A stretch of DNA of 64,000 nt from an uncultured Bacteroidota bacterium (lineage in GTDB: Bacteria > Bacteroidota > Bacteroidia > Chitinophagales > Chitinophagaceae): the NCBI GenBank assembly GCA_963771435.1, contig CAVYTF010000018.1, positions 88,217-152,216 of the forward strand, given 5' to 3'. The translations under genes were made by a program, and so were the position numbers. Positions 1,062 to 58,677 of this stretch are shown here, in pieces. The notes under the pieces were generated by a model that saw only the letters and a list, made by a program, of their open reading frames with translations, was not told the origin of the DNA and did no database searches. Each line of letters starts with the position of its first letter. Position 1 is the first letter of the stretch.

Positions 1062-1895
1062 ATGGCGCGAAAACTAAAGCCGCATGTCATGAGAGGTTGT
1101 TTTTTATTTATTTCCTGTGCCATTTTAATGGTATGCTTTTCATCCTGCTGGAAAGACGACACACCGCCTGTCGTTTATGTTGGTGGCACAGGCTTGCAGT
1201 TGACCCGTATACAACAGGGCACTGATCCAGCAACAGATACTGTTTTTAAGATCATCTATAACGGAAATAATATTTCGAGGATATACGACAGCATTTTTGC
1301 AGGGTCATTTGCTTTTACTGATGCTCTTAACGTATTCTACAATGGCGACCTATTGCAAAGCGTTTCAGACCTCAATGGGGGCTTGAGCGCAACCTATAGC
1401 TATGATCCCGCAATGCGGTTGAAGGAAATAGACATTAATTTCTTTGGCGAAATTGACAATTATTATTACACCTATACAGGCAATAATGTCTCACAAAAAA
1501 GATGGTTCAGCGATTTTAGCAAGGGCACCAAGCCTGTGTTGTACCAGACATCAAACTACACCGTGACAAATGGTAATATCACTGAAGCAAAAACATACGA
1601 CTCGCTTAACACACTGACCTCAGATGTTACTTTCACTTATAACAGCCAACCCCATGCTGCTCTTTTCAAGCAATTAGCACTTCTTGACCTGGGCGATTTT
1701 TTGTTCCTGAACGATTTTGAAGGTTTCGGGATCGGCGGCTGCGATACTTATTTTAACGCGAATATGATGGCAGGTTATACTAACGGCTCCAACAATACCA
1801 GTTTCCCCAATACCCTGAATGCAAACCAAATGCCTTTAGAGATAATTGATAAGGCCTCTGAATATACGTTTACGTGGCAGTTTTCTTATTGGTAA
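1062..1895 (+). CDS. Hypothetical lipoprotein
   Basis: The ORF is open from TTG 1038, with the first ATG at 1062. A hydrophobic leader ends in FSSC (lipobox-like Cys). I recognise no family. Confidence 0.5.
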   Translation: MARKLKPHVMRGCFLFISCAILMVCFSSCWKDDTPPVVYVGGTGLQLTRIQQGTDPATDTVFKIIYNGNNISRIYDSIFAGSFAFTDALNVFYNGDLLQSVSDLNGGLSATYSYDPAMRLKEIDINFFGEIDNYYYTYTGNNVSQKRWFSDFSKGTKPVLYQTSNYTVTNGNITEAKTYDSLNTLTSDVTFTYNSQPHAALFKQLALLDLGDFLFLNDFEGFGIGGCDTYFNANMMAGYTNGSNNTSFPNTLNANQMPLEIIDKASEYTFTWQFSYW

Positions 1896-1932
1896 AAGCC
1901 TTTTGAGCAACAAAGAGATCTTCGCTCGCCTA

Positions 1933-3780
1933 TCAATAAATGCCATTGTTACTGTTTGTGTTGGATTGCACTATATCGGGCGCGCTTACATAATTGCTGT
2001 TGTACCTGAAAATGAGATCAGTGGAAAGGGTTACCTGGAAGGAATTATTACCCTGTACATATCGTGGGAAATAAATAAGGCGCAGTTCTATGGTTCCAAA
2101 AACGAAATTTTCATTGCGGGTGCGCACTCCGCCGCCAATGGCGCCGTAGAGACCGGAAGAACCCGGTGTGCCGTTTTCATGGGTCAGTAAACTTGCGTTC
2201 CCAAAAGCAAAGGGGGCGAATTTGAAACCTAATAATTTGTAGCGTAAAAAGGAGAATGTTTCTGCGTAGAGGCTTATCCTGTTATTGCCGGTCGCAGAGT
2301 CTGAATTGAAATTCCGCAGGCCATAATTATTATTAATATACAAAGGGTCGAGGCCTATGCGGTTGTATAATCCGGAATAGCTGAAATTTATATATTCCCT
2401 CAATTTCATGTTGCCATATTCAAAAAGCTTACTGAAAAACCCTACACCGGCTAGGAGGGTGGCATCCTGCAGTTGGCCGGCATTTAAAAAGCCGCCCATT
2501 CTCAGGAAGTACTGGGTGAAGCTACCTCCTTTGGTTACAAAATATCGGTTGGCATTTATGCCTGCATAAGACCTGTTTAAATTTAACTGCCTGTACCAAC
2601 CGGTGGTTACCGATACATTATAACCGATGGGAACATCTTCTGTAGTTCCGAATCCATATATGTAGTTGGTCTTGTAAAATTCTTGCCGGAAGAAAGTGAC
2701 CTGCCCCAGCACTGCCTGTTTATCATCGTAGCGGAAATTATAAGTGCCCTGCGTTTGCTCGGGCGATTCAAAAAAACTGTTTTTAAAATAACGCAGTGCC
2801 ACAAAATGTTTGTCTTTAAAAGACTTGTTGAGCTTGTATTTTACAACATCGAGGTTGTAGCCAAGCCATGCATCCTGAATGTTATAACCATAATTGTAAA
2901 AGGAAATAGGCGCCTCCATATAGCTGTTAAAGGTTTGGTTTTTGCCGATGGTGAGCGCACCGGCATAATGGGCGTAAGGCGACACAAGGGGCATTTGCAG
3001 GGAGAACAACAGGTCATGTTCATCTGTCATGCCATTATAGAGGTCAGGCGAAATGGTGGAATAACCTGCGGCAAGATTTATAAAACTGTGCCTTATGCTG
3101 GTTTTAGTGTATAGAAATGAATAGCCCATATCTGGCGAGCGGTTGTTTTGAAGCGCGCTGCTCACCACGACTTTTTGTCCCATGCCCAAGATGTTGGCAT
3201 CGCCGACCGAGACCTGGTAGTTGCCGGGTGCAAAACTAGCTACTGAACCCGTGAGGCTAAAGAGGTCTTTGGTAACAATGACAAGGTCAACAGAATCGGG
3301 GTTGCCGGGGATGGGCGTCACCAATATCCTTGCGTCCTGTATAAACTCCAGGGAGCGGTAATAAGTTTCGTTGTCGGCTACTTTATAAGCATCCAAAGGA
3401 GTGTTTTCTTCCAGGAACAGGTTGTCGCGCACTACCCATTCTTTTGTTTTGGTGTGCAGTTTATTCAGCAGTTTGGTGCCGAAATAATTACTTCTTTTTG
3501 CTGTATCGGTAAAGGACTGGTCAAAACCGAACTCTTTAAAAGTAATATGCCTTATAATTTTACCCTCGTAAGGCAGAAAGGGGGCTTGGCCTTTTGTTTT
3601 GATGACCGCGGAATCGCCGGGGTGCCTTGAAACTGCATTTAGGGCAAACGCGAAAATGTTGTTCAGCCTGCTTTTGTGCGTGGTGGCAGTATCAATTTTT
3701 TGGGCTGATGTGTGCAGGCAAAACAAAACAGCAAAACCAACAAGCAAGAGATGTTTAGATATAAGTATGGAAGCATTCAA
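1933..3780 (-). CDS. Outer-membrane beta-barrel protein (Omp85/surface-antigen-like), function unknown
   Basis: 615-aa ORF with signal peptide MNASILISKHLLLVGFAVLFCLHTSAQ. It has a POTRA-like N-terminal part, aromatic-rich alternating beta-strand composition and a C-terminal aromatic residue. Confidence 0.55.
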   Translation of the reverse strand: MNASILISKHLLLVGFAVLFCLHTSAQKIDTATTHKSRLNNIFAFALNAVSRHPGDSAVIKTKGQAPFLPYEGKIIRHITFKEFGFDQSFTDTAKRSNYFGTKLLNKLHTKTKEWVVRDNLFLEENTPLDAYKVADNETYYRSLEFIQDARILVTPIPGNPDSVDLVIVTKDLFSLTGSVASFAPGNYQVSVGDANILGMGQKVVVSSALQNNRSPDMGYSFLYTKTSIRHSFINLAAGYSTISPDLYNGMTDEHDLLFSLQMPLVSPYAHYAGALTIGKNQTFNSYMEAPISFYNYGYNIQDAWLGYNLDVVKYKLNKSFKDKHFVALRYFKNSFFESPEQTQGTYNFRYDDKQAVLGQVTFFRQEFYKTNYIYGFGTTEDVPIGYNVSVTTGWYRQLNLNRSYAGINANRYFVTKGGSFTQYFLRMGGFLNAGQLQDATLLAGVGFFSKLFEYGNMKLREYINFSYSGLYNRIGLDPLYINNNYGLRNFNSDSATGNNRISLYAETFSFLRYKLLGFKFAPFAFGNASLLTHENGTPGSSGLYGAIGGGVRTRNENFVFGTIELRLIYFPRYVQGNNSFQVTLSTDLIFRYNSNYVSAPDIVQSNTNSNNGIY

Positions 3781-3847
3781 ATTACAGGTTAAGAATTTTC
3801 ATGCTTAATAAAAACAAGGATCATGCCTTGTTTAAAAAAGATGGAAC

Positions 3848-3898
3848 TTTCCGCCGCTCTTCCCTTCCTTCCCAACAGCATTCTTATAAATTTATTGG
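3848..3898 (+). repeat. 51-bp cassette-punctuating element, copy R1 (full)
   Basis: TTTCCGCCGCTCTTCCCTTCCTTCCCAACAGCATTCTTATAAATTTATTGG. Identical to the copies at 4284 and 7610. Confidence 0.9.
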
Positions 3899-3927
3899 AT
3901 TAAAAAAGATGAAACTTTGTGTGGTTC

Positions 3928-4212
3928 TTATTCTTTAGTTTCAATAAAATTAAAAAATAATTTACGGAACACTTCAAGAGAATGATGATCACTTGCAGAA
4001 TAAAAGCGAATTAATCTTGGCCAATTGACATCATCTTTCGATTCAAAATGTTTATTGACGAAATCTCTAAAGTCAGATAAAATATTATTCGTTTCTTCAT
4101 TTGCTGAACCATAATTATAACCAGTAAGAAAAAGACTAAGATCTTCAACATTATTGACACAAAACATCGCTGGACGATCTAATACCGCTTTAATAAATTC
4201 TATAAATTCCAA
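3928..4212 (-). CDS. Small hypothetical protein (cassette ORF, immunity-like size)
   Basis: 94-aa ORF, AT-rich by eye, with no signal peptide. It is bracketed by R1 and R2. Confidence 0.5.
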   Translation of the reverse strand: MEFIEFIKAVLDRPAMFCVNNVEDLSLFLTGYNYGSANEETNNILSDFRDFVNKHFESKDDVNWPRLIRFYSASDHHSLEVFRKLFFNFIETKE

Positions 4213-4283
4213 TTTATTTGAATTTTATTGTTTTAGCACCTTCAAATCTTAACCCAATCTCCTTCCACCAAAAGAGCTACCCC

Positions 4284-4334
4284 TTTCCGCCGCTCTTCCC
4301 TTCCTTCCCAACAGCATTCTTATAAATTTATTGG
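4284..4334 (+). repeat. 51-bp cassette-punctuating element, copy R2 (full)
   Basis: Same 51-mer as at 3848 and 7610. Confidence 0.9.
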
Positions 4335-4367
4335 GTGAGATTGCAAATCTAGAACAGCAAGGATCTT

Positions 4368-5084
4368 TTATTTGAGTGAATAACTTGTCATTTTATTGTA
4401 AAGTATACTATCTTCTTTAGAACTTTCATCAATAAAAACTTTAGTAAGATCATAAGAATCATCTAAGCTTTTTAATGATGTCACCAACCCTATCATCTTT
4501 CGGTCAATAATCTTTGTTTTTTGTTTTGCTTCTTTGAAATCACCCAGGTCATCTACAGCATGAATCAATAAATATGATGAAATCGTCAACGTCTGCTTTA
4601 AAACATCATAATATTGGTAAAGACTTACTGAATGCACACTATCAGGTTCCTGTTCACATTCGCAGCTATAATCCAAAGAAACAAGTATAGTCTTTTTTGT
4701 AGGTGGGTTTATTTTGTAATTATATTCATAAAATCTGCTACAAAAATTACCTCCTTCATTAATTGTGAGAACATCGTCTTTAACATACATATTGCCAAAC
4801 CTACCCAAATGAAAATCTGGAGATGAATCAATGATTGTTAAGTCTCTTCCCGTAGTACTAAATATGAATAATTTCACTTCATGTTCCTTATATCTAATTG
4901 AATCGTAGCCTAAAACCGCAAAATAAACTCCATCTGTAGTTTTTATAGTATCAAATTCATTTATAGCCCATTTTGGTCCAATCATCTTCTTTATCGAATC
5001 AATCAATCCCTTGCTTTGTCCAAACCCATTAAACGGTTTTGAAATAATGGAAAGAATAATAATGGGTAATAAAAAAATTTTCAC
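4368..5084 (-). CDS. Hypothetical secreted protein (cassette ORF)
   Basis: 238-aa ORF with signal-like N-terminus MKIFLLPIIILSIISKPFNGFGQ. AT-rich by eye. I recognise no family. Confidence 0.55.
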   Translation of the reverse strand: MKIFLLPIIILSIISKPFNGFGQSKGLIDSIKKMIGPKWAINEFDTIKTTDGVYFAVLGYDSIRYKEHEVKLFIFSTTGRDLTIIDSSPDFHLGRFGNMYVKDDVLTINEGGNFCSRFYEYNYKINPPTKKTILVSLDYSCECEQEPDSVHSVSLYQYYDVLKQTLTISSYLLIHAVDDLGDFKEAKQKTKIIDRKMIGLVTSLKSLDDSYDLTKVFIDESSKEDSILYNKMTSYSLK

Positions 5085-5122
5085 TGTGTAATGTTTATTT
5101 GTTCCTTAATTACAAATCCCCC

Positions 5123-5143
5123 TTTCCGCCGCTCTTCCCTTCC
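5123..5143 (+). repeat. Cassette-punctuating element, copy R3 (5' half only)
   Basis: TTTCCGCCGCTCTTCCCTTCC, after which the sequence diverges into the 21-bp array. Confidence 0.7.
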
Positions 5144-5159
5144 AAAACCCCCGACTTTG

Positions 5160-5395
5160 TAAAGTTTCACTCAAAGTTTGTAAAGTTTGCCTCAAAAGCT
5201 GCAAAGTCAGGGACAAACTTTATAAAGAAAAAGATTTTTCTTGTAAAGAAAACGAAAAACCTTGTAAAGTTTTCGGGAAAAGCTGCAAAGTCAGAGGCAA
5301 ACTTTGTAAAGAAAACGGGAAATCTTATAAAGAAAATCTTTTTCTTTATAAAGAAAGGGAAAGACTTTATAAAGTTTGGGTGAAAAGCTACAAAG
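5160..5395. repeat. Degenerate tandem array with strict 21-bp register
   Basis: The pentamer YAAAG recurs at 5160, 5181, 5202, 5223, 5244, 5265, 5286, 5307, 5328, 5349, 5370 and 5391, which is 12 consecutive 21-bp steps. The motifs are CTTTGTAAAG/CTTTATAAAG and GCTGCAAAGTC. Confidence 0.9.
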
Positions 5396-5533
5396 TCTGC
5401 CCCGGGAGCTGCAAAACTGCCTTTTTGCCCCTTTGGGAGAAATTTTTTCTAAAAAAATCCACCTGCATATTGTTTAAATTTAAAAAGTTTTTTATTTTTG
5501 TTTTCATTAAATAACCCCCCAAAATTTAAAAAA

Positions 5534-6199
5534 ATGATAAGGCCGTCTCACTGCTCTTTAGCTTTTAAAGACCTGCCCATTGCTGCCAAAACCCTGTTTG
5601 GCCCCGGCGTTTATAACGGCATAGGCAACAACTCAAAAGTATTTGCAAACCCCACTGTGCAGCCTGCTGACCTGCAAGCGGCAAACGACGACCTGATATC
5701 TAAGGCACAGTTGGCGGCGGGTGGCGACCATGGCCTTGTGGCTGCCATGCACGACAGCGAAAACGCCTGGGAAGTTATATACGGCAGTGCGGCATTATTC
5801 GTGGATACAGTGGCACAAGGCACCGAAGCCACTATAAGGCTGGGAGGTTTTGAGCCAACTGATACTGAAATTCCTGATGTTACAAACCCTTTGGCAGCAA
5901 CAATTAAAGTATTAAAGGTGAATGCCGCATTGGGCAGTTTTCATGTAGAATTATTTTCAATGATGCATGTTGCCGGGTTCCTTTATATTGTTTCCACCAC
6001 TGCCGCTGTGCCTGTGTTTGTGAACAACCAATTTTTGTTGTCTGCAAACCCCACGGTGATAGCGATGATAGCAGACACGCACCGCAAAGTTGATTTTTAT
6101 AACCTGCCTGCCAGCCAAACTTTTTATTTAAGCATCGTGGCTTTTAACACAGCGGGCATGGGTGCGGTTACTCAGCCGGTGCTGATAAAAGTGCTGTAA
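5534..6199 (+). CDS. Hypothetical protein, C-terminal Ig/FN3-like beta region
   Basis: The ORF is open from TTG 5498, with the first ATG at 5534. It is GC-richer than the neighbouring cassettes and is followed by a hairpin terminator at about 6222-6255. Confidence 0.55.
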   Translation: MIRPSHCSLAFKDLPIAAKTLFGPGVYNGIGNNSKVFANPTVQPADLQAANDDLISKAQLAAGGDHGLVAAMHDSENAWEVIYGSAALFVDTVAQGTEATIRLGGFEPTDTEIPDVTNPLAATIKVLKVNAALGSFHVELFSMMHVAGFLYIVSTTAAVPVFVNNQFLLSANPTVIAMIADTHRKVDFYNLPASQTFYLSIVAFNTAGMGAVTQPVLIKVL

Positions 6200-6228
6200 G
6201 TTTTGAAAAGATATTTTTGAAAGCTGCT

Positions 6229-6274
6229 GGCTGAAAAGGCTGGCAGCTTTTTTTGTGGGGTATATTTGGTGGGG
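6229..6274 (+). repeat. Leader module L1 (terminator hairpin + T-run + TATATTTG -7 motif)
   Basis: GGCTGAAAAGGCTGGCAGCTTTTTTTGTGGGGTATATTTGG is duplicated at 6948. TATATTTG (6261-6268) matches the Bacteroidota TAnnTTTG -7 consensus and lies 19 nt before ATG 6288. Confidence 0.7.
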
Positions 6275-6287
6275 AAAGAAAGAAATT

Positions 6288-6911
6288 ATGAAACGATATT
6301 TATTATTATTTGCACTTTTAGTAATGAGTAATTGCATTACACACAATAAAGAGTATTTGAATGCTAAAACTATGATGTATCAAAATGTCTCGACAGTATC
6401 AAGTATTGATTTATATCAAGATGGAAATTTGAAGTGTTTAATTGATTCTGTAAAAGGAAAAGAATTTGGAAATCGGTTTTCATTTTATGAAAACTCATAC
6501 TTGTCAAGCTATTGCTTTATGATAGATTCTGCTCGTGCTTCATACATAGAAACATTTGATTCAGTTAGCCATGAAATTATCAGTGTAGAAGGAAATCCGA
6601 TTGTGTATAAAACTATTAATGCAGATAGTTACCATGACTCATTGTTTATTCAATATTTAATTACTACTTTTCCATATGACAACATTGAATTTCAAATTTC
6701 AGACAGTGGAAGAGAATTTAAAAGTATACCTATAAGCAATCCATCTGGTGAATATGTCAGGTTAAAATATTTAAAATCTATCAATTATTTTAAGAATACA
6801 AAATCTATCAGTCGTTTTTATGTAATAGCAAAATTTACGGGGAGATTGAAAGATACAAAAGAAATAAAAACCTATACTGATACTATTGATTTATCTAAAA
6901 GGATACAATAG
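6288..6911 (+). CDS. Hypothetical lipoprotein (cassette ORF)
   Basis: MKRYLLLFALLVMSNC is a lipobox-type leader. AT-rich by eye. It is followed directly by R4. Confidence 0.6.
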   Translation: MKRYLLLFALLVMSNCITHNKEYLNAKTMMYQNVSTVSSIDLYQDGNLKCLIDSVKGKEFGNRFSFYENSYLSSYCFMIDSARASYIETFDSVSHEIISVEGNPIVYKTINADSYHDSLFIQYLITTFPYDNIEFQISDSGREFKSIPISNPSGEYVRLKYLKSINYFKNTKSISRFYVIAKFTGRLKDTKEIKTYTDTIDLSKRIQ

Positions 6912-6913
6912 AA

Positions 6914-6938
6914 AACAGCATTCTTATAAATTTATTGG
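6914..6938 (+). repeat. Cassette-punctuating element, copy R4 (3' half)
   Basis: AACAGCATTCTTATAAATTTATTGG. Confidence 0.75.
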
Positions 6939-6947
6939 TTGGCTGTT

Positions 6948-6990
6948 GGCTGAAAAGGCTGGCGGCTTTTTTTGTGGGGTATATTTGGGG
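6948..6990 (+). repeat. Leader module L2 (duplicate of L1)
   Basis: GGCTGAAAAGGCTGGCGGCTTTTTTTGTGGGGTATATTTGGGG. TATATTTG lies at 6980-6987, 20 nt before ATG 7008. Confidence 0.7.
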
Positions 6991-7007
6991 GAAGAAAATA
7001 AATACTT

Positions 7008-7208
7008 ATGAAGATTATAGATGGAGGTAAAGAAATGTATGAAAAGGAAAAAACTTTAAAAAAAATTAAAGTAGATTTAGAAAATTGGACAACCTATTAT
7101 TCAGATTTAGAAACCGGCGAAAAATGGATAAAAGAATATCCCTTTCCTGAAATGCAAGCAGGTGGACCGCCTCAAATGCGATTACTTGAAAAATTTCCGT
7201 GGGAATAA
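7008..7208 (+). CDS. Small immunity-like protein (Imm27-like: GGxP motif + C-terminal Trp)
   Basis: 66-aa ORF ending ...EKWIKEYPFPEMQAGGPPQMRLLEKFPWE. The GGPP motif and penultimate Trp recall the polymorphic-toxin immunity family I remember as Imm27. Confidence 0.5.
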   Translation: MKIIDGGKEMYEKEKTLKKIKVDLENWTTYYSDLETGEKWIKEYPFPEMQAGGPPQMRLLEKFPWE

Positions 7209-7224
7209 TAAGACCATTTCCCCC

Positions 7225-7250
7225 CAATAAAATTCTTATAAATTCTATGG
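7225..7250 (+). repeat. Cassette-punctuating element, copy R5 (degenerate 3' half)
   Basis: CAATAAAATTCTTATAAATTCTATGG. It overlaps ATG 7247. Confidence 0.5.
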
Positions 7251-7609
7251 AAAAGTCTAATATAATTAAGGAAATAATCTCTATTCCTGCCCGGTTTTAT
7301 TCTGAAGGCAATATTTCATTTTATTCTTTGCTTAAAAAGACGGGATATTTTGAATTGTATAATCAAATTAGTGAGGTTGATATTTTTGAAATGCTTAAAC
7401 AAGATTTAGAGTGTATTACTCAATGGCTCAGTTGGTCAGAAGATAAGCGGGTTACTTATGGTTGGTATTTTAAAGAGAGCCTGAATGGAAACTATATCGT
7501 TGGTCATTTTCCTCCTAAAGAAGATTTTAAAACAATAGAATATTCGGATGTTTCGCAAGCGTGTTCCGTTTTCATTAAACGGGAAATTGAAGACATCAGA
7601 AAAAGTTAA
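7247..7609 (+). CDS. Hypothetical protein (cassette ORF)
   Basis: The ORF is open from GTG 7199, with ATG at 7247 (MEKSNIIKE...). It is 120 aa, AT-rich, and followed directly by R6. Confidence 0.55.
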   Translation: MEKSNIIKEIISIPARFYSEGNISFYSLLKKTGYFELYNQISEVDIFEMLKQDLECITQWLSWSEDKRVTYGWYFKESLNGNYIVGHFPPKEDFKTIEYSDVSQACSVFIKREIEDIRKS

Positions 7610-7660
7610 TTTCCGCCGCTCTTCCCTTCCTTCCCAACAGCATTCTTATAAATTTATTGG
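7610..7660 (+). repeat. 51-bp cassette-punctuating element, copy R6 (full)
   Basis: Same 51-mer as at 3848 and 4284. Confidence 0.9.
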
Positions 7661-7685
7661 TTGGGGGGAAGAGGACAAATAAAAA

Positions 7686-7994
7686 ATGAAACAAAGAATG
7701 AAATCCATTTTATCTATTCTCTTTATTTTATGGTTTTTAATTCCATATTCATTTTTATTTTATAGAAAATGGAATTTGCGAGTAAGGCTTTTATTTATAT
7801 CGTTATTTGAAATTCTCTTTTTATATCTCACAATAATTATTGTTCAAAATTTTAAAGATGATTTACTAAACGGCCCTGCTTTTTTTTATAATATACTTAT
7901 ATGGCCAAGTATTTTTTTAAACTTAGTTGTAATATTAATTATTTGGCTGATAAAAAGAATAAAATCTTTCTACCGAAAAGACACCAATAATTAG
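7686..7994 (+). CDS. Small integral membrane protein (cassette ORF)
   Basis: 102 aa with three hydrophobic segments (ILSILFILWFLIPYSFLFY, LLFISLFEILFLYLTIIIV, IWPSIFLNLVVILIIWLI). Confidence 0.5.
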   Translation: MKQRMKSILSILFILWFLIPYSFLFYRKWNLRVRLLFISLFEILFLYLTIIIVQNFKDDLLNGPAFFYNILIWPSIFLNLVVILIIWLIKRIKSFYRKDTNN

Positions 7995-8003
7995 ATTGTA
8001 TTT

Positions 8004-8037
8004 TTCCTTCCAAACATCATTCTTATAAATTTATTGG
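8004..8037 (+). repeat. Cassette-punctuating element, copy R7 (degenerate)
   Basis: TTCCTTCCAAACATCATTCTTATAAATTTATTGG. It overlaps the stop codon (8031-8033) of the minus-strand decarboxylase gene. Confidence 0.65.
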
Positions 8038-9539
8038 GCAGCCTCCTGTAGGTTTAAATGCATCTTCCTTCCTGCTTTAACCACTATTTGAATCACTTCT
8101 TCTATGTCTTTTTTTGCGGTGCGGAAGTTTACGATGCAGCAGCGCAGGCAATATTTTTCATTTACCACAGCGTTGGATAAAAATACTTCGCCCCCATGCT
8201 GCAAGGCGTTCAGCAGGGCCTCGTTCAATTTGTTTAAATAGGCTTCATTGTTTTGGCCGCCGTTATTTTCGGGCACATACCTGAACGTGGCGATGCTGAG
8301 GTTTTGGGTAATGGCCTCCAGTTCAGGATGCGCACCCGCCAGTTGAAACAAGAGCTTTGAAAGCGCAATATCGTCCACGATCATTTTTTCATAACCAAGC
8401 CTGCCTACCTGCTGCAGCATCATCCAAACCTTCAGTGCCCTGAAGCCGCGTGAATTCTGAAAGCCGTATTCATAATAATTCACCGTGGCAGGTCCGTCGG
8501 TATTGAAGTTATAATACACCGCATGGGAACTGTAGGCCTCCATCAAATGGTTGGGGTCTTTCACAAGAGTGCATCCGGCTTCCAGCGGGCTGTAGAGCCA
8601 TTTGTGCGGATCAACCGCAATGGAATCCGCAGCTTCAATCCCGGCAAAAAGCGGCTTAAGTTCCGGGATAACAGCGGCAGGTATGCCATAAGCACCATCC
8701 ACATGAAACCAGAGATTATAAGTTTTGCAAATGGCAGCAATGGCTTTAAGATCATCAACAGCACCGGTACTTACATCGCCTGCATTGCCGATAACCATCA
8801 ATGGTTTGCAGCCATTTTGTATATCTTCTTTTATAGTTTGTTCCAGTGCATCATTGTCCATCCTGTTGCGGGCATCGGTCGCTATCCAGCGGATGGATCT
8901 TGTGCCAAGGCCGAACAAAACAACGGCTTTTTCTATCCAGGTATGCGTGGTTTTAGGGCAATAAACAAGTAGTTTCTGGGAGTCATTTGATATGCCATGT
9001 TCCTTTATTGTTTTAGGCGCTTTTACCGTTCTTGCCGCAAGGAAAGCGGTAAAGTTTGCCATGTTGCCGCCACTAACCAATATGCCTCCATAAGAAGTGG
9101 GCACGCCGATAAATTCTGCAAGCCATTTCACGGTTTGTTTTTCAATTTCGGTAGCCATAGGGCTTAAAATATTAGCGCCTACATTGGGGTTAACAGCCGA
9201 AGCTAACAGGTCTGCCAATGCACCAATGGGCGCAGGAGAAGAAGTGATGTAACCAAAGAATTTCGGATGGCCGTTAAAAAGAGAATGATCAAACAACAGG
9301 CTTGTCGCTTTGGCAAATAATTCTTCCGCAGGCGTGCTGTTCTCAGGCAATGATGCATTGCCAAGAATGGTTTGCAACTGCTCGGGGGATTCGCCGGGTG
9401 TGACCGGCCTTTCTTTAATACTGCTTATAAAGTCAGCAATTGAATCTACCAACTGGTGGCCGATCTTTTTAAACTCGTCTTTACTGAGTTCAATAGGTGC
9501 TTCGCGATAATCTGTCATATAACAAGGTTTCTGGTTCAA
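8031..9539 (-). CDS. Pyridoxal-phosphate-dependent (group II, aromatic-L-amino-acid/glutamate-type) decarboxylase
   Basis: 502 aa. Contains SGGNMANF, a DPHKW PLP-lysine motif and HVDGAYG, which is the classic group II decarboxylase layout. Confidence 0.85.
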   Translation of the reverse strand: MNQKPCYMTDYREAPIELSKDEFKKIGHQLVDSIADFISSIKERPVTPGESPEQLQTILGNASLPENSTPAEELFAKATSLLFDHSLFNGHPKFFGYITSSPAPIGALADLLASAVNPNVGANILSPMATEIEKQTVKWLAEFIGVPTSYGGILVSGGNMANFTAFLAARTVKAPKTIKEHGISNDSQKLLVYCPKTTHTWIEKAVVLFGLGTRSIRWIATDARNRMDNDALEQTIKEDIQNGCKPLMVIGNAGDVSTGAVDDLKAIAAICKTYNLWFHVDGAYGIPAAVIPELKPLFAGIEAADSIAVDPHKWLYSPLEAGCTLVKDPNHLMEAYSSHAVYYNFNTDGPATVNYYEYGFQNSRGFRALKVWMMLQQVGRLGYEKMIVDDIALSKLLFQLAGAHPELEAITQNLSIATFRYVPENNGGQNNEAYLNKLNEALLNALQHGGEVFLSNAVVNEKYCLRCCIVNFRTAKKDIEEVIQIVVKAGRKMHLNLQEAAQ

Positions 9540-9574
9540 AAGTAGAAACTTATTATGTACGGAAGTGAATAGTT

Positions 9575-10193
9575 TTATTCGGCTTTTTCTTTGAGCAATT
9601 CTTTTATATCATCCTGCAGTTTTGATAGTTCATTTTTTTTCAACCCATCATAAACCTGTCCGCGTACCTGCCCTTTTTTATCCACCAATGCAAAGAATTG
9701 CGTGTGTAAAAACTGGTCATTGATATTTACAACAGCGTTTTTTGGATCATCAAGTAAATAGCTGTTTCGTGCAGCTTTGTAAAGGCTATCTTTTCTTCCC
9801 GTAAGGAAAACCCATTTGTCGGTATTTACTTTTAATAAGTTGGCATAATGTTTTAAAACAGGAGCGGAGTCTGTTCCCGGAATCAGAGGTGTGGGAAACG
9901 ATGATGAGGTCGGGCTCATCTTTAAAAGCTTCATATATCTTTTTCATGTTGTTGTTCATGCGCGGGCAAATGCCCTTGCAGGTAGTAAAAAAATAATTGA
10001 TCACGCAGACTTTGCCGAGCATATCTTTCTCCGTGAACGGCTTGCCATCCTGTGTAGTAAATGAGAAAGGCTGAACGGTGCTCAGTACGGGGAGTTTTGT
10101 CTTCCAGTTATCTGTACCTGCAAAAACAAAGGCAAGAAAAGAGGCGGTAAGCACGATAAAAAAAATAGAGTACCAAAGCAATTTCTTGTTCAT
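9575..10193 (-). pseudogene. SCO1/SenC copper-chaperone thioredoxin-fold protein, frameshifted as given
   Basis: The N-terminal ORF 9786..10193 carries a TM segment and the CxxxC motif (FTTCKGICP). The C-terminal ORF 9575..9934 continues ...DSAPVLKHYA.... The frames join near 9879-9885; removing 1 nt restores a ~205-aa protein. Confidence 0.8.
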
Positions 10194-10303
10194 CTGAAGT
10201 TTTTCGGTTGCGAAATTACATTAGTTCTTTACAAGGGAAAGCAAATTTAACTGTGCTGTTTTTAATAATAAATTCAATCGCTTACATTTGCAACCCGGTA
10301 AAT

Positions 10304-10385
10304 GCGGAGGTGGCGAAACTGGTAGACGCACTACTTTGAGGTGGTAGCGCCGCGAGGCATGGGAGTTCGAATCTCCTCTTCCGCA
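10304..10385 (+). tRNA. tRNA-Leu (anticodon GAG)
   Basis: Folded by hand. Acceptor stem GCGGAGG/CTTCCGC, anticodon stem CTACT/GGTAG, loop TTGAGGT, long variable arm, T-loop GGGAGTTCGAATCTCCT. Confidence 0.9.
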
Positions 10386-10387
10386 CA

Positions 10388-10420
10388 AGCCTTTTCTCAA
10401 ACAGAAAAGGCTTTTTTTTT
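10388..10420 (+). terminator. Rho-independent terminator after tRNA-Leu
   Basis: AGCCTTTTCT-caaac-AGAAAAGGCT followed by T9. Confidence 0.85.
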
Positions 10421-10456
10421 GCCCTTAAATGCAATAGGTTTGCGCCTAAAAAAATT

Positions 10457-18500: not shown

Positions 18501-18880
18501 GATCGTGTAACTACGAAAGATGATCGATCATGTTTGAAGGATGATCGTGAATGTTTGAAGGATGATCGTGAATGTTTTAAGGATGATCGTGAATGTTTGA
18601 AGGGTTATCGTGAATGATTGAAGGATGATCGTGAAAGTATGAAGGTTTAATATTAAAGTATGAAGGTTTAATATTAAAGTATGAAGGATCAATATTAAAG
18701 TATGAAGGTTTAATATTAAAGTATGAAGGTTTAATATTAAAGTATGAAGGTTTAATATTAAAGTATGAAGGTTTAATATTAAAGTATGAAGGTTTAATAT
18801 TAAAGTATGAAGGATCAATATTAAAGTATGAAGGTTTAATATTAAAGTATGAAGGATTAATATTAAAGTATGAAGGATTT
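18501..18880. repeat. 21-bp tandem array (two core families in one continuous register)
   Basis: GATGATCGTGAATGTTTGAAG occurs about 7 times, then GTATGAAGGTTTAATATTAAA about 11 times. GAAGG recurs at 18536 + 21n for n = 0-16. Confidence 0.95.
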
Positions 18881-25604: not shown

Positions 25605-28193
25605 TTACCTCGCCAGCACCATCTTCTTCGTATCGATCAGCTTCCCGTCAATCAATAAACTATATTGATACATACCCGCAGCCATTTCACCCCCGCTGAT
25701 AACCTGTTTCCCATACCCGCTATTGGCAAGCGTAAACGTTTTTAATGTATGCCCTGAAATATCTGTTATCATAAGCGCTGCATTATGAAAATCCTGTGGA
25801 ATATAGTAGCTTATATAAGAACTGCCGTTAAATGGGTTAGGTACATTCTGGTCAAGCCTTGGTTGGTCTGTAATAGTTGTCATTTGCTGGCTGCTTATTG
25901 TTCGTTGCATGTTTGATGTAAAGCTATTGCAGCATTGGCTCATGGCTGACTGCATCTGTGTAATGGTGTTTTTTAGATCACTCATTTGTTGCTGCAATGC
26001 AGTAACAGTGTTTTGCAATGGTTCCACAATATTTTTCAAAGAATCGTTCTCTACGGATAATTCCTGCACTGCTTTTACCAGCGGCACTACAAATTCACTG
26101 TAACGCAGGCTATACAGATCCTGCTCATTCTGTGGCTTTACCACACCGCTGAAATCGTAGTTGATCTTTTCTGCTGCATTTTCTACATCCTGGGCAAGAA
26201 AGCCCGTCATCTGCTTTTTTTCAAGGTCATATTTACCCGGAAAATCTACGTCAGCATTCTTCCCGTTGACTGTTTTACCTGCATACATCATTTGATCTTC
26301 TTTGTGTATATCAAGCTTATAGGTCACCGGCCTCAGCAGGTTAATAAAAGCAAGCCCCGGCACATTCTGTTGAATATTATTCTTTATCCGTCGGTCGCTG
26401 TAGGTGCTGAAGTTTACCTCCCCTCTGATAACGGTAACACTTCCATCGCCGATCTCCACCATATTACTTGAACTTGCACTCGAACCAACATCATACCCAA
26501 GCCCGGTCCAATTAGTTAATGTGGCAGTAGTTGGGTAAGCACGGAATCCAATACCGGTATTATAGTTTCCTGTTGTGTTGGTGGAAAGAGCATTTGCTCC
26601 AATAGCCGTATTATTTCCCCCCGTAGTGTTACTGATCATCGCTTGGTAACCGTCCACAGTATTATCGGCACCTGACGTATTTAAATAAAGAGTTTTACTG
26701 CCAATAGCTGTATTTGCTATTCCTGAATTATTACTATACAAAGCGGAATCACCAACGGCAACCTGGTTGCTGATTGTAAGGCTATTAAATAAAGTTTGTA
26801 CTCCGATCGCCACATTACTATAACCCGTGGTATTGTTGTATAATGAATTGAATCCGCTTGCAGTATTAGTATTTCCCGTAGTGTTTTCGTCGAGAGACCC
26901 ACTGCCATCAGCACTATTGTACATTCCTGTGGTATTATAGGAAAGGGCATCTTCTCCGTTTGCAGTATTATAGCTACCGGTAGTGTTGTTATATAGCGCT
27001 GCAAGTCCATTTGCAGTGTTATTATTCCCCGTGGTGTTATAATAAAGAGCTTCTCCCCCGTTTGCAGTATTGTAACTTCCCGTATTGTTGTTTATAAGGG
27101 CATCTTCTCCATTTGCCGTATTATAACTTCCTGTTGTATTAACAAATAGCGCAGATTCCCCATTTGCTGTATTATAATTTCCTGTAGTGTTGAAAAATAG
27201 CGCAGACTCCCCATTTGCCGTATTATCAATTCCTGTAGAGTTTTCATAAAGGGCACCAAAGCCAGTAGCAGTATTATCATCTCCTGTTGTATTGTAATAA
27301 AGACCTTGATAACCATTTGCAGTATTTTCACTTCCGGTAGTGTTTGAATAAAGCGCCTGGTATCCAGTGGCAATATTATAGTTTCCCGCAGTGTTTGAAT
27401 AAAGCGCCTGGTAACCATTGGCGCTGTTATAAACTCCGATTGTGTTTGAATAAAGAGACTGGTAACCTATAGCCACATTGTACGCTCCAGTTATATTTAA
27501 ATATAATGATTGATAACCATCAGCCGTATTCTGGCCTCCGGTAGTGTTTGAATGAAGTGCATTATATCCATTGGCCGTATTTTGGCTTCCGGTGGTGTTT
27601 GAATATAGTGCAGAATAACCTGTTGCTTGATTACCTGCACCCGTTGTATTGGAATACAGCGCCTCATACCCTACCGCCGTAAGATTGCTCACAGTGCTGT
27701 TAAAGAGCGTACCATACCCAACAGCAGTATTGTTGCTGCCGCTTACATTCGTATAAAGCGATTGGCCGCCATTTGCAAGGTTATAACTGCCCGTCGTGTT
27801 ATAATTTAGCGTTTGGCGCCCGATCCCGGTATTGTATTGCCCCGTCGTGTTGTATTGCAATGTTGTAGCCCCGTTCGCAACGTTAAACGAACCCGTAAGG
27901 CTAACTCCCCCTAATGCAGCATATCCAAGTGCGGTATTTTCGATTGGCGGATTACTGCCTGAAGCGTTTTGCAGGCATAGGTATCCAATGCCCGTATTAT
28001 AATGGCTGCCCGTATAAGTACCCTCAACAATACCTCCCTTCCTGCCGTCAAGAACAAAATTTAATGGAAATGCATTTGTAGTGCCCAAAACATTTCCGCT
28101 AACAGCTGCATTACCTGCCAGGCTCCAGCTCTGTGCAAATACAGCCTGTGTTATTACTAATAACAAGGCTCCGAAGAATACAATTTTTTTCAT
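25605..28193 (-). CDS. T9SS-sorted fibre protein, paralog 1 (NTANG/NTTG repeats + S74 tail-fibre chaperone domain + T9SS CTD)
   Basis: Start at MKKIVFFGALLLVITQAVFA/QSW; the ORF extension to 28271 runs through the upstream gene's terminator. It has 17-aa repeats, then SDRRIKNNIQQNVPGLAFINLLRPVTYKLD...GFLAQDVENAAE...LVKAVQEL (Peptidase S74 signature), a coiled coil, and the CTD LDQNVPNPFNGSS...YQYSLLIDGKLIDTKKMV. Confidence 0.85.
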   Translation of the reverse strand: MKKIVFFGALLLVITQAVFAQSWSLAGNAAVSGNVLGTTNAFPLNFVLDGRKGGIVEGTYTGSHYNTGIGYLCLQNASGSNPPIENTALGYAALGGVSLTGSFNVANGATTLQYNTTGQYNTGIGRQTLNYNTTGSYNLANGGQSLYTNVSGSNNTAVGYGTLFNSTVSNLTAVGYEALYSNTTGAGNQATGYSALYSNTTGSQNTANGYNALHSNTTGGQNTADGYQSLYLNITGAYNVAIGYQSLYSNTIGVYNSANGYQALYSNTAGNYNIATGYQALYSNTTGSENTANGYQGLYYNTTGDDNTATGFGALYENSTGIDNTANGESALFFNTTGNYNTANGESALFVNTTGSYNTANGEDALINNNTGSYNTANGGEALYYNTTGNNNTANGLAALYNNTTGSYNTANGEDALSYNTTGMYNSADGSGSLDENTTGNTNTASGFNSLYNNTTGYSNVAIGVQTLFNSLTISNQVAVGDSALYSNNSGIANTAIGSKTLYLNTSGADNTVDGYQAMISNTTGGNNTAIGANALSTNTTGNYNTGIGFRAYPTTATLTNWTGLGYDVGSSASSSNMVEIGDGSVTVIRGEVNFSTYSDRRIKNNIQQNVPGLAFINLLRPVTYKLDIHKEDQMMYAGKTVNGKNADVDFPGKYDLEKKQMTGFLAQDVENAAEKINYDFSGVVKPQNEQDLYSLRYSEFVVPLVKAVQELSVENDSLKNIVEPLQNTVTALQQQMSDLKNTITQMQSAMSQCCNSFTSNMQRTISSQQMTTITDQPRLDQNVPNPFNGSSYISYYIPQDFHNAALMITDISGHTLKTFTLANSGYGKQVISGGEMAAGMYQYSLLIDGKLIDTKKMVLAR

Positions 28194-28235
28194 GGCTTTT
28201 AATTTTAAAACAAGGTAAGGGATTTTTATTAACGA

Positions 28236-28268
28236 AATAAAAAAAGCCACTCCTTTCAGAATGGCTTT
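28236..28268 (-). terminator. Rho-independent terminator of paralog 2
   Basis: The minus strand reads AAAGCCA-ttctgaaaggag-TGGCTTT followed by a T-run, immediately after the stop of 28303..30819. Confidence 0.7.
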
Positions 28269-28302
28269 CAATTCTCAATTCTCAATTTTCAATTATAACT
28301 TC

Positions 28303-30819: not shown

Positions 30820-30862
30820 GGCTTTTAATTTTTGAACAAGGTAGGGGATTTTTATTAACGAA

Positions 30863-30894
30863 ATAAAAAAAGCCACCCTTTCAGAATGGCTTTT
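30863..30894 (-). terminator. Rho-independent terminator of paralog 3
   Basis: AAAAGCCA-ttctgaaaggg-TGGCTTTT plus a T-run on the minus strand. Confidence 0.7.
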
Positions 30895-30927
30895 AATTCT
30901 CAATTCTCAATTTTCAATTATAACTTC

Positions 30928-33648: not shown

Positions 33649-33693
33649 GGCTTTTAATTTTTGAACAAGGTAGGGGATTTTTATTAACGAAAT

Positions 33694-33723
33694 AAAAAAA
33701 GCCATCCTTTCAGAATGGCTTTC
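33694..33723 (-). terminator. Rho-independent terminator of paralog 4
   Basis: AAAGCCAT-tctgaaagg-ATGGCTTT plus T7 on the minus strand. Confidence 0.75.
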
Positions 33724-33749
33724 AATTCTCAATTTTCAATTATAACTTC

Positions 33750-41695: not shown

Positions 41696-41732
41696 CCATA
41701 ACCTTATAGGCAACCGATCAAAGCACAGCCAA

Positions 41733-49829: not shown

Positions 49830-49840
49830 CTTAAATTTAA

Positions 49841-50069
49841 TTTAGTACTCAAAAACAAGTATTTAATATTCAAAAACATATATTTAACAATTAAAAACAG
49901 CTATTTAATAAGCTAAAACGACTATTTAATAATCAAAATCAAGTATTTAATAATCAAAATCAAATATTTAATATTTAAAAACGGATATTTAATAATCAAA
50001 AACAATCATTTAATAAAGTAAATCAAGTATTTAACAATCAAAAACGACTATTTAACAATCAAAAACAGC
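49841..50069. repeat. 21-bp tandem array (10 in-phase units + 1 partial)
   Basis: Units start at 49860 + 21n. Each is TATTTAAYAATCAAAAAC plus a 3-nt variable tail (ata, agc, gac, aag, aaa, gga, aat, aag, gac, agc). Confidence 0.95.
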
Positions 50070-58413: not shown

Positions 58414-58677
58414 TTACCTTTAAAAGAGTTGCTGCAAATGTAATTAAAGCCGTATATTTGCAATGCGATACCCGGTAAATCCTCTCTCCCGCATGGGATG
58501 ATGAAACCGGGTTTTTGTTTTTCCAAAAATCCCTTTTGGACCTTAGAAGTACCAAAACCAGCACTCACTCTAAAATATTTTTAAGAGAATCTTACTAAAA
58601 ATGAATATTGAGAGCTTACAAGTTTTTAATCTCATTACCATTCCCTTATCAATCCGAATCATTAGTTTTGAAAAGAT

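What the first reader, a model, noticed from the sequence alone, without database searches (positions are those of the whole stretch)
3848..8037. AT-rich array of small orphan ORFs punctuated by seven same-orientation copies of a ~51-bp element, resembling an integron or rAID-like immunity-gene array without a visible recombinase
Six small ORFs of 66-238 aa have no housekeeping identity. They comprise two lipoprotein or secreted proteins, one membrane protein and one Imm27-like protein.

They are separated by copies of TTTCCGCCGCTCTTCCCTTCCTTCCCAACAGCATTCTTATAAATTTATTGG. Three copies are identical full-length (3848, 4284, 7610). Four are partial or degenerate (5123, 6914, 7225, 8004).

All copies lie in the same orientation, although two ORFs are on the minus strand and four on the plus strand. 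The last copy supplies the stop codon of the flanking decarboxylase gene.

The element contains a polypyrimidine tract and the 10-bp palindrome ATAAATTTAT. The pattern is cassette, repeat, cassette.

This resembles integron attC arrays and the recombinase-associated acquired interbacterial defence (rAID) immunity arrays described in gut Bacteroidales. However, the repeat has no attC-like symmetry, and no integrase, recombinase or toxin gene lies within reach.
Basis: partly seen in the sequence, partly recalled or inferred. Interest (0 to 1): 0.7.

Follow-up and report, generated by a model that had tools for sequence, protein, structure and literature searches.

The report
Repeat-jointed island of orphan immunity genes
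A soil- or water-type Chitinophagaceae bacterium carries a small, strain-variable island of antitoxin-like "immunity" genes stitched together by copies of one conserved 51-base sequence. It looks like a new relative of the immunity-gene arrays of gut Bacteroidales, but no recombinase is visible.

Summary
One 51-nt sequence occurs three times exactly (3848, 4284, 7610). Four partial copies lie at 5123, 6914, 7217 and 8004. All are on the + strand, and none lies in the other ~60 kb.

The island (GC 0.33, window 0.41) sits between an outer-membrane protein gene and a PLP decarboxylase gene, whose stop codon lies in the last copy.

- **Cargo:** the 66-aa ORF is Imm27. Homologues of the 120-aa ORF follow 278-aa ORFs on two other contigs; in the one with DNA that ORF is an Rhs toxin tip.
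- **Strain variation:** a relative (L021, decarboxylase 92% identical) has the same repeat at the same place, 45/45 nt identical, around different genes. Synteny ends exactly at the repeat edge. More distant relatives show no such island and no repeat where checked.
- **What the repeat is not:** it has no hairpin, so it is not attC-like. No recombinase was found in 37 ORFs scanned across the window.

Best reading: an accessory island of orphan immunity genes whose modules are joined, and probably exchanged, at a conserved junction sequence. It is rAID- or integron-like in logic but a member of neither. The recombination step is inferred, not shown.

The rest of the source genome could not be searched.

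The parts
3848..3898 (+). R1, full 51-nt junction repeat, 68 nt upstream of the outer-membrane protein gene start
   Evidence: Exact match. Flanked by a 16-nt direct duplication TTAAAAAAGATGRAAC at 3832-3847 and 3900-3915.
3928..4212 (-). w94, a 94-aa ORF (TTG start) of an uncharacterised ~100-aa family
   Evidence: 219 cluster representatives at E<=1e-3, some as multi-copy fusions. No Pfam or PDB match. GC 0.28.
4284..4334 (+). R2, full 51-nt junction repeat
   Evidence: Exact match.
4368..5084 (-). w238, a 238-aa ORF with an N-terminal signal-peptide-like segment (by inspection)
   Evidence: ORF list. No family match. GC 0.30.
5123..5143 (+). R3, left 21 nt of the repeat only, continuous with the C/T-rich leader of the next module
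   Evidence: Sequence diverges from the 51-mer after position 21.
5153..5415 (.). Array of about 13 units of 21 bp with the palindromic core CTTTRTAAAG, upstream of w221
   Evidence: (families D1, D2). Homologues of w221 in L021, L025 and L026 each have their own 21-bp array of different sequence.
5534..6199 (+). w221, a 221-aa ORF with host-like GC (0.48); the distant homologue is named an FN3-domain protein. Not immunity-like.
   Evidence: Only 3 relatives in the 5.8-billion-protein set. Broken into 118 + 84 aa in L021. Structure model of low confidence.
6223..6272 (+). 50-nt junction: terminator hairpin plus a TATATTTG (-7 type) box, 27 nt before the w208 start
   Evidence: (family D6). Also follows the w221 homologue in L021 and L025.
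6288..6911 (+). w208, a lipoprotein-like ORF (signal peptide ending in Cys, by inspection); only weak similarity to the MORN_2 protein of L021
   Evidence: BLASTP E 0.001 to l223 in a small database. GC 0.27.
6914..6938 (+). R4, right 25 nt of the repeat only
6942..6991 (+). Second copy of the 50-nt terminator/promoter junction, 28 nt before the Imm27 start
   Evidence: D6, 94% identity; terminator-like site 6941-6967.
7008..7208 (+). 66-aa Imm27-family immunity protein gene
   Evidence: Pfam PF15590, E 3.4e-11, 43.3 bits against a cut-off of 27.3.
7217..7250 (+). R5, decayed copy that reads as the 51-mer with an internal ~18-nt deletion; its end supplies the ATG of w120
   Evidence: D4, 71%. 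13-nt exact core ATTCTTATAAATT.
7247..7609 (+). w120, a 120-aa ORF; immunity protein by position in other genomes. No toxin gene precedes it here.
   Evidence: 23 homologues. In L029 the homologue starts 3 nt after a 278-aa Rhs-core-end/toxin-tip ORF. On the P0134 contig (no DNA) a 278-aa ORF again lies directly upstream. In L030 it lies in an array with Imm26. Confident model (pLDDT 93) with no PDB fold match.
7610..7660 (+). R6, full 51-nt junction repeat. Starts directly after the w120 stop; its TAAATTTA lies 37 nt before the w102 start.
7686..7994 (+). w102, a 102-aa ORF with about three hydrophobic helices (by inspection)
   Evidence: GC 0.22.
8004..8037 (+). R7, right 34 nt of the repeat with 2 mismatches; contains the stop codon and last codon of the decarboxylase. 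Synteny with L021 ends at its left edge.
   Evidence: L021 2823-5084 aligns to window 10274-8004.
8031..9539 (-). PLP-dependent (aromatic-amino-acid type) decarboxylase gene; core flank
   Evidence: Pfam Pyridoxal_deC, E 2.8e-63. Homologues in Chitinophagaceae.
1933..3780 (-). 615-aa outer-membrane-protein-like gene; left flank, GC 0.44
   Evidence: No Pfam match. Signal peptide by inspection.

Best explanation
This is an accessory, strain-variable island of orphan polymorphic-toxin immunity genes. The host is an uncultured Chitinophagaceae bacterium. The island lies between the 3' end of a PLP decarboxylase gene and the upstream region of an outer-membrane protein gene.

**Modules.** Most modules are one small AT-rich gene, and several have their own promoter box. 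One module is a two-gene unit built around an FN3-like gene with a 21-bp binding-site-like array.

**Junctions.** The modules are joined by direct copies of a non-coding, unstructured 51-nt sequence. It consists of a C/T-rich (CTTCC)n-like left part and an AT-rich right part holding the palindrome ATAAATTTAT.

**Proposed mechanism.** The junction sequence is most likely the place where modules are added, lost and swapped. Two routes are possible: a site-specific recombinase encoded elsewhere in the genome, or recombination across the short identical repeats. Its right end may also act as a weak promoter box for the next + strand gene.

**Proposed function.** The genes would protect the cell against toxins delivered by neighbouring bacteria, of Rhs and other polymorphic-toxin types.

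**Shown:** the repeats, their restriction to the island within the window, variation of content between relatives, break of synteny at a repeat edge, and an immunity identity for two ORFs.

**Inferred:** that recombination happens at the repeat, that a recombinase acts in trans, and that the genes protect.
For: - **Repeat real and local.** Three exact and four partial direct copies lie within 4.2 kb; none lies in the other ~60 kb; 0 are expected by chance.
- **Same repeat in a relative.** L021 (decarboxylase 92% aa, DNA 87% over 2275 nt) carries the repeat at the decarboxylase stop and again 2.5 kb away. Its ORFs are unrelated except for a broken w221 homologue.
- **Synteny breaks at the repeat.** The window/L021 alignment stops exactly at the left edge of R7.
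- **Repeat unusually conserved.** The long copy is 45/45 identical between the two genomes, and 51/51 among three copies in the window. At 87% flank identity, a neutral 45-mer would stay unchanged with probability about 0.87^45 = 0.002 (my arithmetic).
- **Island is accessory.** Relatives at 78-81% aa (L022-L024) show no such island and no shared gene order; L022, the one compared at DNA level, has no repeat.
- **Cargo is immunity-type.** Imm27. The w120 family lies 3 nt after an Rhs-core-end/toxin-tip ORF in L029, and a 278-aa ORF again lies directly upstream on a second contig. It also lies with Imm26 in L030. A MORN_2 (YwqK-type) protein occurs in L021.
- **Same architecture elsewhere.** The islands holding w120 homologues in L029 and L030 are also bounded or punctuated by private same-orientation repeats, which are absent from their flanks.
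- **Foreign composition.** Six ORFs have GC 0.22-0.32, against 0.41 for the window.
Against: - No recombinase was found among 37 ORFs scanned across the 64 kb.
- The repeat has no inverted-arm core, only a 10-bp palindrome, and no hairpin (z-scores -0.2 to +1.4).
- No excised or rearranged form was observed. The only runs that could be laid on the window did not contain the island.
- Only two genomes carry the repeat. The rest of the source genome could not be searched, so copy number and other contexts are unknown.
- The collection scans were negative, but my patterns included end bases that vary in L021, so those negatives are weak.
- The copy next to the decarboxylase lacks the left part. 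The simplest model, insertion of a cassette carrying a full site at that position, predicts the opposite.
- The left half is continuous with the leader of the w221 module. The 51-mer may therefore be a chimera rather than a dedicated site.
- Four of the seven ORFs have no functional evidence.
Confidence: 0.55

Rival explanations
1. The repeat is an expression signal, not a recombination site. It would be a portable promoter, 5'-UTR or 3'-end module that came with the genes or was copied between intergenic regions. The island would grow by ordinary horizontal transfer and illegitimate recombination, with breakpoints only loosely tied to the repeat.
For: - The right end TAAATTTA is one base from the Bacteroidota -7 box TAnnTTTG (established knowledge). 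It lies 37 nt before the w102 start.
- R5 supplies the ATG of w120. The repeat supplies the TAA stop of the decarboxylase and of l223 in L021.
- A second conserved junction, the 50-mer, is clearly a terminator plus a consensus -7 box.
- The minus strand of the repeat (TGTTGGGAAGGAAGGGAAGAG) resembles the purine-rich leaders that follow -7 boxes here and in L025.
Against: - Orientation is constant whatever the direction of the neighbouring genes.
- R1, R2 and R7 point into the 3' ends of convergent genes, where a promoter would only make antisense RNA.
- No consensus TAnnTTTG lies inside the repeat, and there is no terminator-like hairpin.
- A weak expression signal does not explain 45/45 identity across genomes whose flanks differ by 13%.
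- It does not explain synteny ending exactly at the repeat edge.
Confidence: 0.2
2. The repeats are att-site scars of serial integration. Larger integrative elements would have inserted one after another into an attachment site at the 3' end of the decarboxylase gene. Each insertion duplicated the site, and the elements then decayed to their small cargo genes, losing their integrases.
For: - The copy next to the decarboxylase overlaps the gene's stop codon and is present in both genomes.
- All copies are direct.
- R3 and R4 look like attL- and attR-type halves around a 1.77-kb insert.
- In L029 an Rhs/immunity block is flanked by direct repeats in the way an inserted island would be.
Against: - The units are 300-840 bp, each trimmed to within a few bases of a single ORF. 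Repeated decay to such precise units is unlikely.
- There is no integrase remnant in any frame of the island (ORF list; Pfam).
- Three copies are 100% identical, which does not fit old, decayed elements.
Confidence: 0.15
3. The 51-mer is a small non-autonomous selfish repeat of MITE or REP type. It has inserted several times into an AT-rich island and has nothing to do with how the genes got there.
For: - R1 is flanked by a 16-nt direct duplication, which looks like a target duplication.
- The copies are identical, as after a recent burst.
Against: - There are no terminal inverted repeats and no hairpin.
- No flank duplication occurs at R2, R6 or L021's long copy.
- All seven copies point the same way.
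- None lies in the other ~60 kb of the window.
- Half-site scans of species-representative genomes and JGI metagenomes gave only chance hits. This is weak evidence, as noted above.
- The copies lie exactly between genes and at the synteny break.
Confidence: 0.08

Closest known systems
rAID (recombinase-associated acquired interbacterial defence) arrays of gut Bacteroidales
   Same: - Arrays of short, low-GC genes that encode orphan immunity proteins.
- Conserved intergenic sequence motifs.
- Content differs between strains.
- Same phylum (Bacteroidota).

The rAID features are as summarised in PMC12247911.
   Different: - No tyrosine recombinase at the head of the array or anywhere in 64 kb.
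- Genes on both strands (5 plus, 2 minus).
- Host is an environmental Chitinophagaceae bacterium, not Bacteroidales.
- The junction sequence is private to this lineage.
- One module is not immunity-like.
- A link to a type VI secretion system is unknown.
Integrons and CALINs (clusters of attC sites lacking an integron integrase)
   Same: - Cassette, repeat, cassette layout.
- Repeats in a single orientation.
- Small accessory genes.
- An array without an adjacent integrase, as in CALINs.
- Some stop codons lie inside the repeat.
   Different: - The repeat is identical between cassettes, whereas attC sites vary in sequence and keep a folded imperfect palindrome. No such fold is present here.
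- Several modules carry their own promoter.
- No intI or attI.
Orphan toxin-tip/immunity arrays downstream of rhs and cdi loci
   Same: - Accumulation of immunity genes.
- The 120-aa family is found in just such Rhs-tip/immunity pairs elsewhere (L029, and L030 with a toxin remnant).
   Different: - In those arrays the repeated segment is coding: the conserved end of the toxin core, used for homologous recombination.
- Here the repeat is non-coding and no toxin fragment remains. Homology to L029 begins only 9 nt before the immunity start codon.
Xer/dif-type modules (pdif modules of Acinetobacter plasmids)
   Same: Small gene modules bounded by short conserved sites, with the recombinase encoded elsewhere.
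   Different: - pdif sites are 28 bp, with two 11-bp inverted arms, and alternate in orientation around a module.
- Here there are no such arms and all copies are direct.

Membership tests
Integron | IntI tyrosine recombinase gene next to the array | tested here: not met
   No integrase or recombinase domain in the 7 island ORFs or in 30 other window ORFs scanned with Pfam. The rest of the genome was not available.
Integron | attC sites: imperfect palindromes that fold as single-stranded hairpins | tested here: not met
   Both strands of three copies were folded as DNA: -1.5 to -5.7 kcal/mol, z-scores -0.2 to +1.4 against shuffles. The only symmetry is a 10-bp palindrome.
Integron | Cassettes co-oriented and mostly promoterless, expressed from Pc | tested here: not met
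   Two of seven ORFs are on the minus strand. Consensus TAnnTTTG boxes lie 27-41 nt before three starts.
Integron | Cassette content varies between close relatives | tested here: met
   Window against L021.
rAID | Predicted tyrosine recombinase at the head of the array | tested here: not met
   None in the window. The left flank is an outer-membrane protein gene and the right flank a decarboxylase gene.
rAID | [quoted passage not shown] | tested here: inconclusive
   Sizes of 66-238 aa and GC 0.22-0.32 fit for six ORFs. However, two ORFs are on the other strand and w221 has GC 0.48.
rAID | Conserved intergenic sequence motifs | tested here: met
   The 51-mer and the 50-nt terminator/promoter junction (family D6).
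rAID | Genes encode orphan immunity proteins against contact-dependent toxins | tested here: inconclusive
   Imm27. w120 qualifies by conserved position after a 278-aa ORF, shown to be an Rhs toxin tip in L029. The other ORFs have no evidence. Protection itself is not testable here.
Rhs/CDI orphan array | Repeated segment encodes the conserved end of the toxin core, and toxin-tip fragments precede the immunity genes | tested here: not met
   Three of the repeat's six reading frames contain a stop codon, it has no Rhs motif, and no long ORF runs through it. There is no toxin remnant upstream of w120.
MITE / REP element | Terminal inverted repeats or a palindromic hairpin, with dispersal over the genome | tested here: inconclusive
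   No inverted ends or hairpin, and no copy in the other ~60 kb. Genome-wide count is not testable with what was available.
Xer/dif (pdif) modules | 28-bp site with two 11-bp inverted arms around a 6-bp spacer; sites alternate in orientation | tested here: not met
   The inverted-repeat search found no such arms in the element, and all copies are direct.

The most novel reading that the evidence does not exclude
A cassette-capture system for immunity genes that is distinct from both integrons and rAID. In it, a double-stranded 51-nt junction (a CTTCC-rich tract plus an AT palindrome) is recognised by a recombinase encoded far from the array, or is used without any dedicated recombinase. This would let Chitinophagaceae collect single immunity genes, trimmed precisely to the ORF, at the end of a housekeeping gene.
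Probability: 0.2. Interest if true: 0.75.

Novelty: new variant of a known kind. Interest (0 to 1): 0.5.

Why it matters
How orphan-immunity arrays are built is an open question. [quoted passage not shown]

This locus offers a compact case outside the gut Bacteroidales:
- seven short junction copies, three of them identical;
- single-gene modules trimmed to the ORF;
- a close relative with the same junction around different genes;
- no recombinase nearby.

That makes the junction easy to test for recombination. It would also show whether such defensive gene collections are common in soil and water Bacteroidota. The work additionally gives a testable toxin/immunity pairing for an uncharacterised 120-aa family with a confidently predicted fold that has no solved relative.

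Tried and rejected
- **Collection scans.** The right-half 20-mer in 185,579 species genomes gave 2 chance hits. The left 19-mer in JGI metagenomes gave 17 hits, none extending beyond about 22-30 nt. Both halves gave 0 hits in viral contigs. The runs found with the neighbouring DNA (X1-X3) hold sequence matching the window to the right of tRNA-Leu (from 10448) but not the island, and only distant decarboxylase homologues. PDB sequence searches gave nothing for w94, w120, w238 or w221.\n- **Structure.** The w120 model is confident but has no PDB fold match (best E 0.08). The w221 model is too poor to search (pLDDT 44).\n- **Other libraries.** Rfam found only two tRNAs in the window. There was no DNA match to plasmids or phages.\n- **Literature.** The original rAID paper was not held.\n- **Rejected readings.** An attC-like site (no fold), a dif-like site (no arms), a coding repeat, and an intrinsic terminator.

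Full report
**Observation**

The 51-mer TTTCCGCCGCTCTTCCCTTCCTTCCCAACAGCATTCTTATAAATTTATTGG occurs exactly at 3848, 4284 and 7610 on the + strand. Shuffled sequence gives no match. Its left 21 nt recur at 5123. Its right 20 nt recur exactly at 6919 and 8018. A decayed copy lies at 7217-7250. No copy, half or whole, lies elsewhere in the 64 kb.

The region 3848-8037 has GC 0.33, against 0.41 for the window. Six of its seven ORFs have GC 0.22-0.32. The decarboxylase ORF (8031-9539, minus strand; Pfam Pyridoxal_deC, E 2.8e-63) ends with TAA at 8031-8033, inside the last copy.

Four corrections apply:
- There are seven ORFs, not six.
- The copies at 5123 and 6914 are the left 21 nt and right 25 nt of the element, bracketing a 1.77-kb two-gene module.
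- The copy at 7217 reads as TTTCC + CCCAA..., that is, the 51-mer with an internal ~18-nt deletion and a few substitutions.
- A second conserved junction exists. It is a 50-nt terminator hairpin plus a TATATTTG box at 6223-6272 and 6942-6991.

**Host and setting**

The closest decarboxylase homologues carry names from Parafilimonas, Ginsengibacter, Panacibacter and Ferruginibacter, all Chitinophagaceae. The rest of the window is housekeeping: ATP synthase, PEP carboxylase, acetyl-CoA synthetase, two-component regulators and RecX. Pfam found no recombinase or integrase domain in the 7 island ORFs or in 30 other ORFs. The two tRNA genes lie at 10304 and 19600.

**Cargo**

- The 66-aa ORF (7008-7208) is Imm27 (E 3.4e-11, above the curated cut-off).
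- The 120-aa ORF (7247-7609) has 23 homologues at 50-67% identity, mostly on short metagenome contigs.
  - In L029 the homologue starts 3 nt after a 278-aa ORF. That ORF opens with the end of the Rhs core (YQYNGKE...GL.W.DYGARWYD..IGRW..VDPLAD...SPYAY.WNNP...DPDG) followed by about 190 residues of unique tip.
  - A 402-aa Rhs fragment with a different tip, followed by a MORN_2-like ORF, lies just upstream. Together these make two toxin-tip/immunity pairs.
  - A second contig (P0134; gene table only, no DNA) again has a 278-aa ORF directly before the homologue.
  - In L030 the homologue follows a remnant of the same toxin end (...GYRLNNEGTQMIK*). It sits in an array of eight small ORFs that includes Imm26.
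  - In the window, homology to L029 begins only 9 nt before the ATG. The gene here is therefore an orphan with no toxin remnant.
  - Its predicted fold is confident (pLDDT 93) but matches nothing solved.
- The 94-aa ORF belongs to an uncharacterised family of about 100-aa proteins. It has 219 cluster representatives, some fused in up to seven copies. It has no Pfam or PDB relative.
- The 238-aa and 208-aa ORFs have signal-peptide or lipoprotein-like N-termini, and the 102-aa ORF has three hydrophobic helices (all by inspection). None has a family.
- The 221-aa ORF (5534-6199) is different in kind. Its GC is 0.48, it has only three relatives in 5.8 billion proteins, and the distant one is named an FN3-domain protein.

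**Comparison between strains**

L021 is a JGI metagenome contig whose decarboxylase is 92% identical in protein and 87% in DNA over 2275 nt. It has the same upstream SCO1/SenC gene.

- The right 35 nt of the repeat sit at its decarboxylase stop, and a 45-nt copy lies 2.5 kb further on. That copy is 100% identical to the window's full copies.
- Between and beyond these copies lie different genes: 111-, 103-, 223- (MORN_2, E 3.8e-15) and 121-aa ORFs, and a partial ORF with a weak, sub-threshold match to phage lysozyme. The only shared gene is a broken w221 homologue.
- The window/L021 alignment ends exactly at the left edge of the decarboxylase-proximal copy (window 8004).
- The stop codon of L021's 223-aa gene lies in the repeat at the same TAA that the decarboxylase uses.
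- Relatives at 78-81% protein identity (L022-L024) show no such island and no shared gene order; L022, the one compared at DNA level, has no repeat.

The ORFs are therefore accessory, and the repeat is far better conserved than its surroundings. At 87% flank identity, a neutral 45-mer would remain unchanged with probability about 0.002 (my arithmetic). The decarboxylase-proximal copy behaves more like flank: 2 differences in 35 nt between the two genomes.

**What the repeat is not**

- Folded as single-stranded DNA on either strand, it is no more stable than shuffles (z-scores -0.2 to +1.4). It is therefore not attC-like and not an intrinsic terminator.
- It has no pair of inverted arms of the dif or tyrosine-recombinase core type, only the 10-bp palindrome ATAAATTTAT.
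- Three of its six reading frames contain a stop codon, no long ORF runs through it, and it has no Rhs-like coding content.
- It matches no Rfam family and no plasmid or phage record.

**What it may also do**

Bacteroidota promoters use a -7 box TAnnTTTG (established knowledge). Consensus boxes lie 27-28 nt before the w208 and Imm27 starts, inside the 50-mer, and 41 nt before w221. The repeat's TAAATTTA is one base off consensus and lies 37 nt before the w102 start. The minus strand of the repeat resembles the purine-rich leaders that follow such boxes here and in L025. A secondary role in expression is possible.

Such a role does not explain the constant orientation, since three copies face the 3' ends of convergent genes. 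It also does not explain the conservation.

**Origin of the element**

The left 21 nt at 5123 are continuous with the C/T-rich leader that precedes the 21-bp array of the w221 module. L025 and L021 have C/T-rich leaders in the same position, with weak similarity. The right 35 nt are the native flank of the decarboxylase in both genomes.

The 51-mer can thus be read in two ways:
- as a junction of these two sequences across the shared CTTCC; or
- as an intact site into which the w221 module was inserted between positions 21 and 27.

I could not decide between these readings. The simplest model is a cassette with a full site inserting next to the decarboxylase. That model predicts a full copy at that position, which is not what is seen.

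R1 is flanked by a 16-nt duplication. Its 12-mer core occurs otherwise only in L021's 21-bp array. This is unexplained.

**Wider pattern**

In L029 and L030 the islands that hold w120 homologues are likewise bounded or punctuated by same-orientation repeats of unrelated sequence. These repeats are absent from the flanking housekeeping DNA. Repeat-jointed toxin/immunity islands therefore recur, each with a private junction.

**Conclusion**

The locus is an accessory island of orphan immunity genes, joined and most likely exchanged at a conserved junction sequence. It works like rAID arrays and integrons in logic: small accessory modules, a conserved junction and strain variation.

It fails the defining tests of both. 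There is no recombinase in reach, no attC fold and no co-orientation. It also differs from Rhs/CDI orphan arrays, because its repeat is non-coding.

Recombination at the repeat is inferred, not shown. Copy number in the rest of the genome is unknown. My collection scans were negative but weak, because the patterns included end bases that vary.

Noticed in passing
window 18515-18876, 40740-41669, 49840-50067 (and 5153-5415): Intergenic tandem arrays with a 21-bp (or 42-bp) period are frequent in this genome: four loci in 64 kb, each with a different unit, some 90-95% uniform over 11-17 units. Their role is unknown. Candidates are binding-site arrays or variable-number repeats.
   Followed up: partly
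window 5153-6199; L021 5805-6850; L025 272-1318; L026 9694-10672: Every homologue of the 221-aa FN3-like ORF is preceded by its own 21-bp array with a different palindromic core: CTTTRTAAAG, AAAGATGCATCTTT, AAAAGA..TCTTTT and GCAAAA...TTTTGC. This holds even for the 36%-identical one in an ordinary chromosomal setting. The gene and the array seem to evolve together.
   Followed up: partly
window 3832-3847 and 3900-3915; L021 6764-6775 and 6807-6818: R1 is flanked by a 16-nt direct duplication. Its 12-mer AAAAGATGRAAC occurs nowhere else in the window, but it does occur in the units of L021's 21-bp array, in the same orientation.
   Followed up: partly
window 9575-10193: The SCO1/SenC gene is split into two overlapping ORFs (119 and 135 aa), whereas L021 has one 205-aa gene. 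This is a frameshift or a sequencing error.
   Followed up: no
window 10274-10450 (tRNA-Leu at 10304-10386): Synteny with L021 ends at 10274. A contig of run X1 matches the window from 10448 rightwards, but X1 has nothing matching 1500-10228. The tRNA-Leu gene looks like a rearrangement point between relatives.
   Followed up: partly
window 25605-36005: Four adjacent large minus-strand ORFs (888, 866, 934 and 751 aa) are full of 51-bp (17-residue) periodic repeats. They are probably paralogous repeat-rich surface proteins.
   Followed up: no
window 57766-59631: A weak Abi_2-like ORF (E 5e-4, below Pfam's cut-off) and an HNH endonuclease ORF sit beside the ATP synthase operon. This may be a small defence or selfish insert.
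   Followed up: no
L029 7190-10814: Two Rhs-tip/immunity pairs lie in a row: 402 aa + MORN_2-like 219 aa, then 278 aa + 119 aa. The block is flanked by GC-rich direct repeats that are absent from the rest of the 20-kb locus.
   Followed up: partly
L030 1-5100: An array of eight small ORFs, including Imm26 and a w120 homologue, is punctuated by three copies of a ~200-240-nt direct repeat.
   Followed up: partly
window 40895-41954: Long ORFs on both strands (228 and 351 aa) overlap a 42-bp x 16.6 tandem array. They are probably artefacts of the repeat rather than genes.
   Followed up: no
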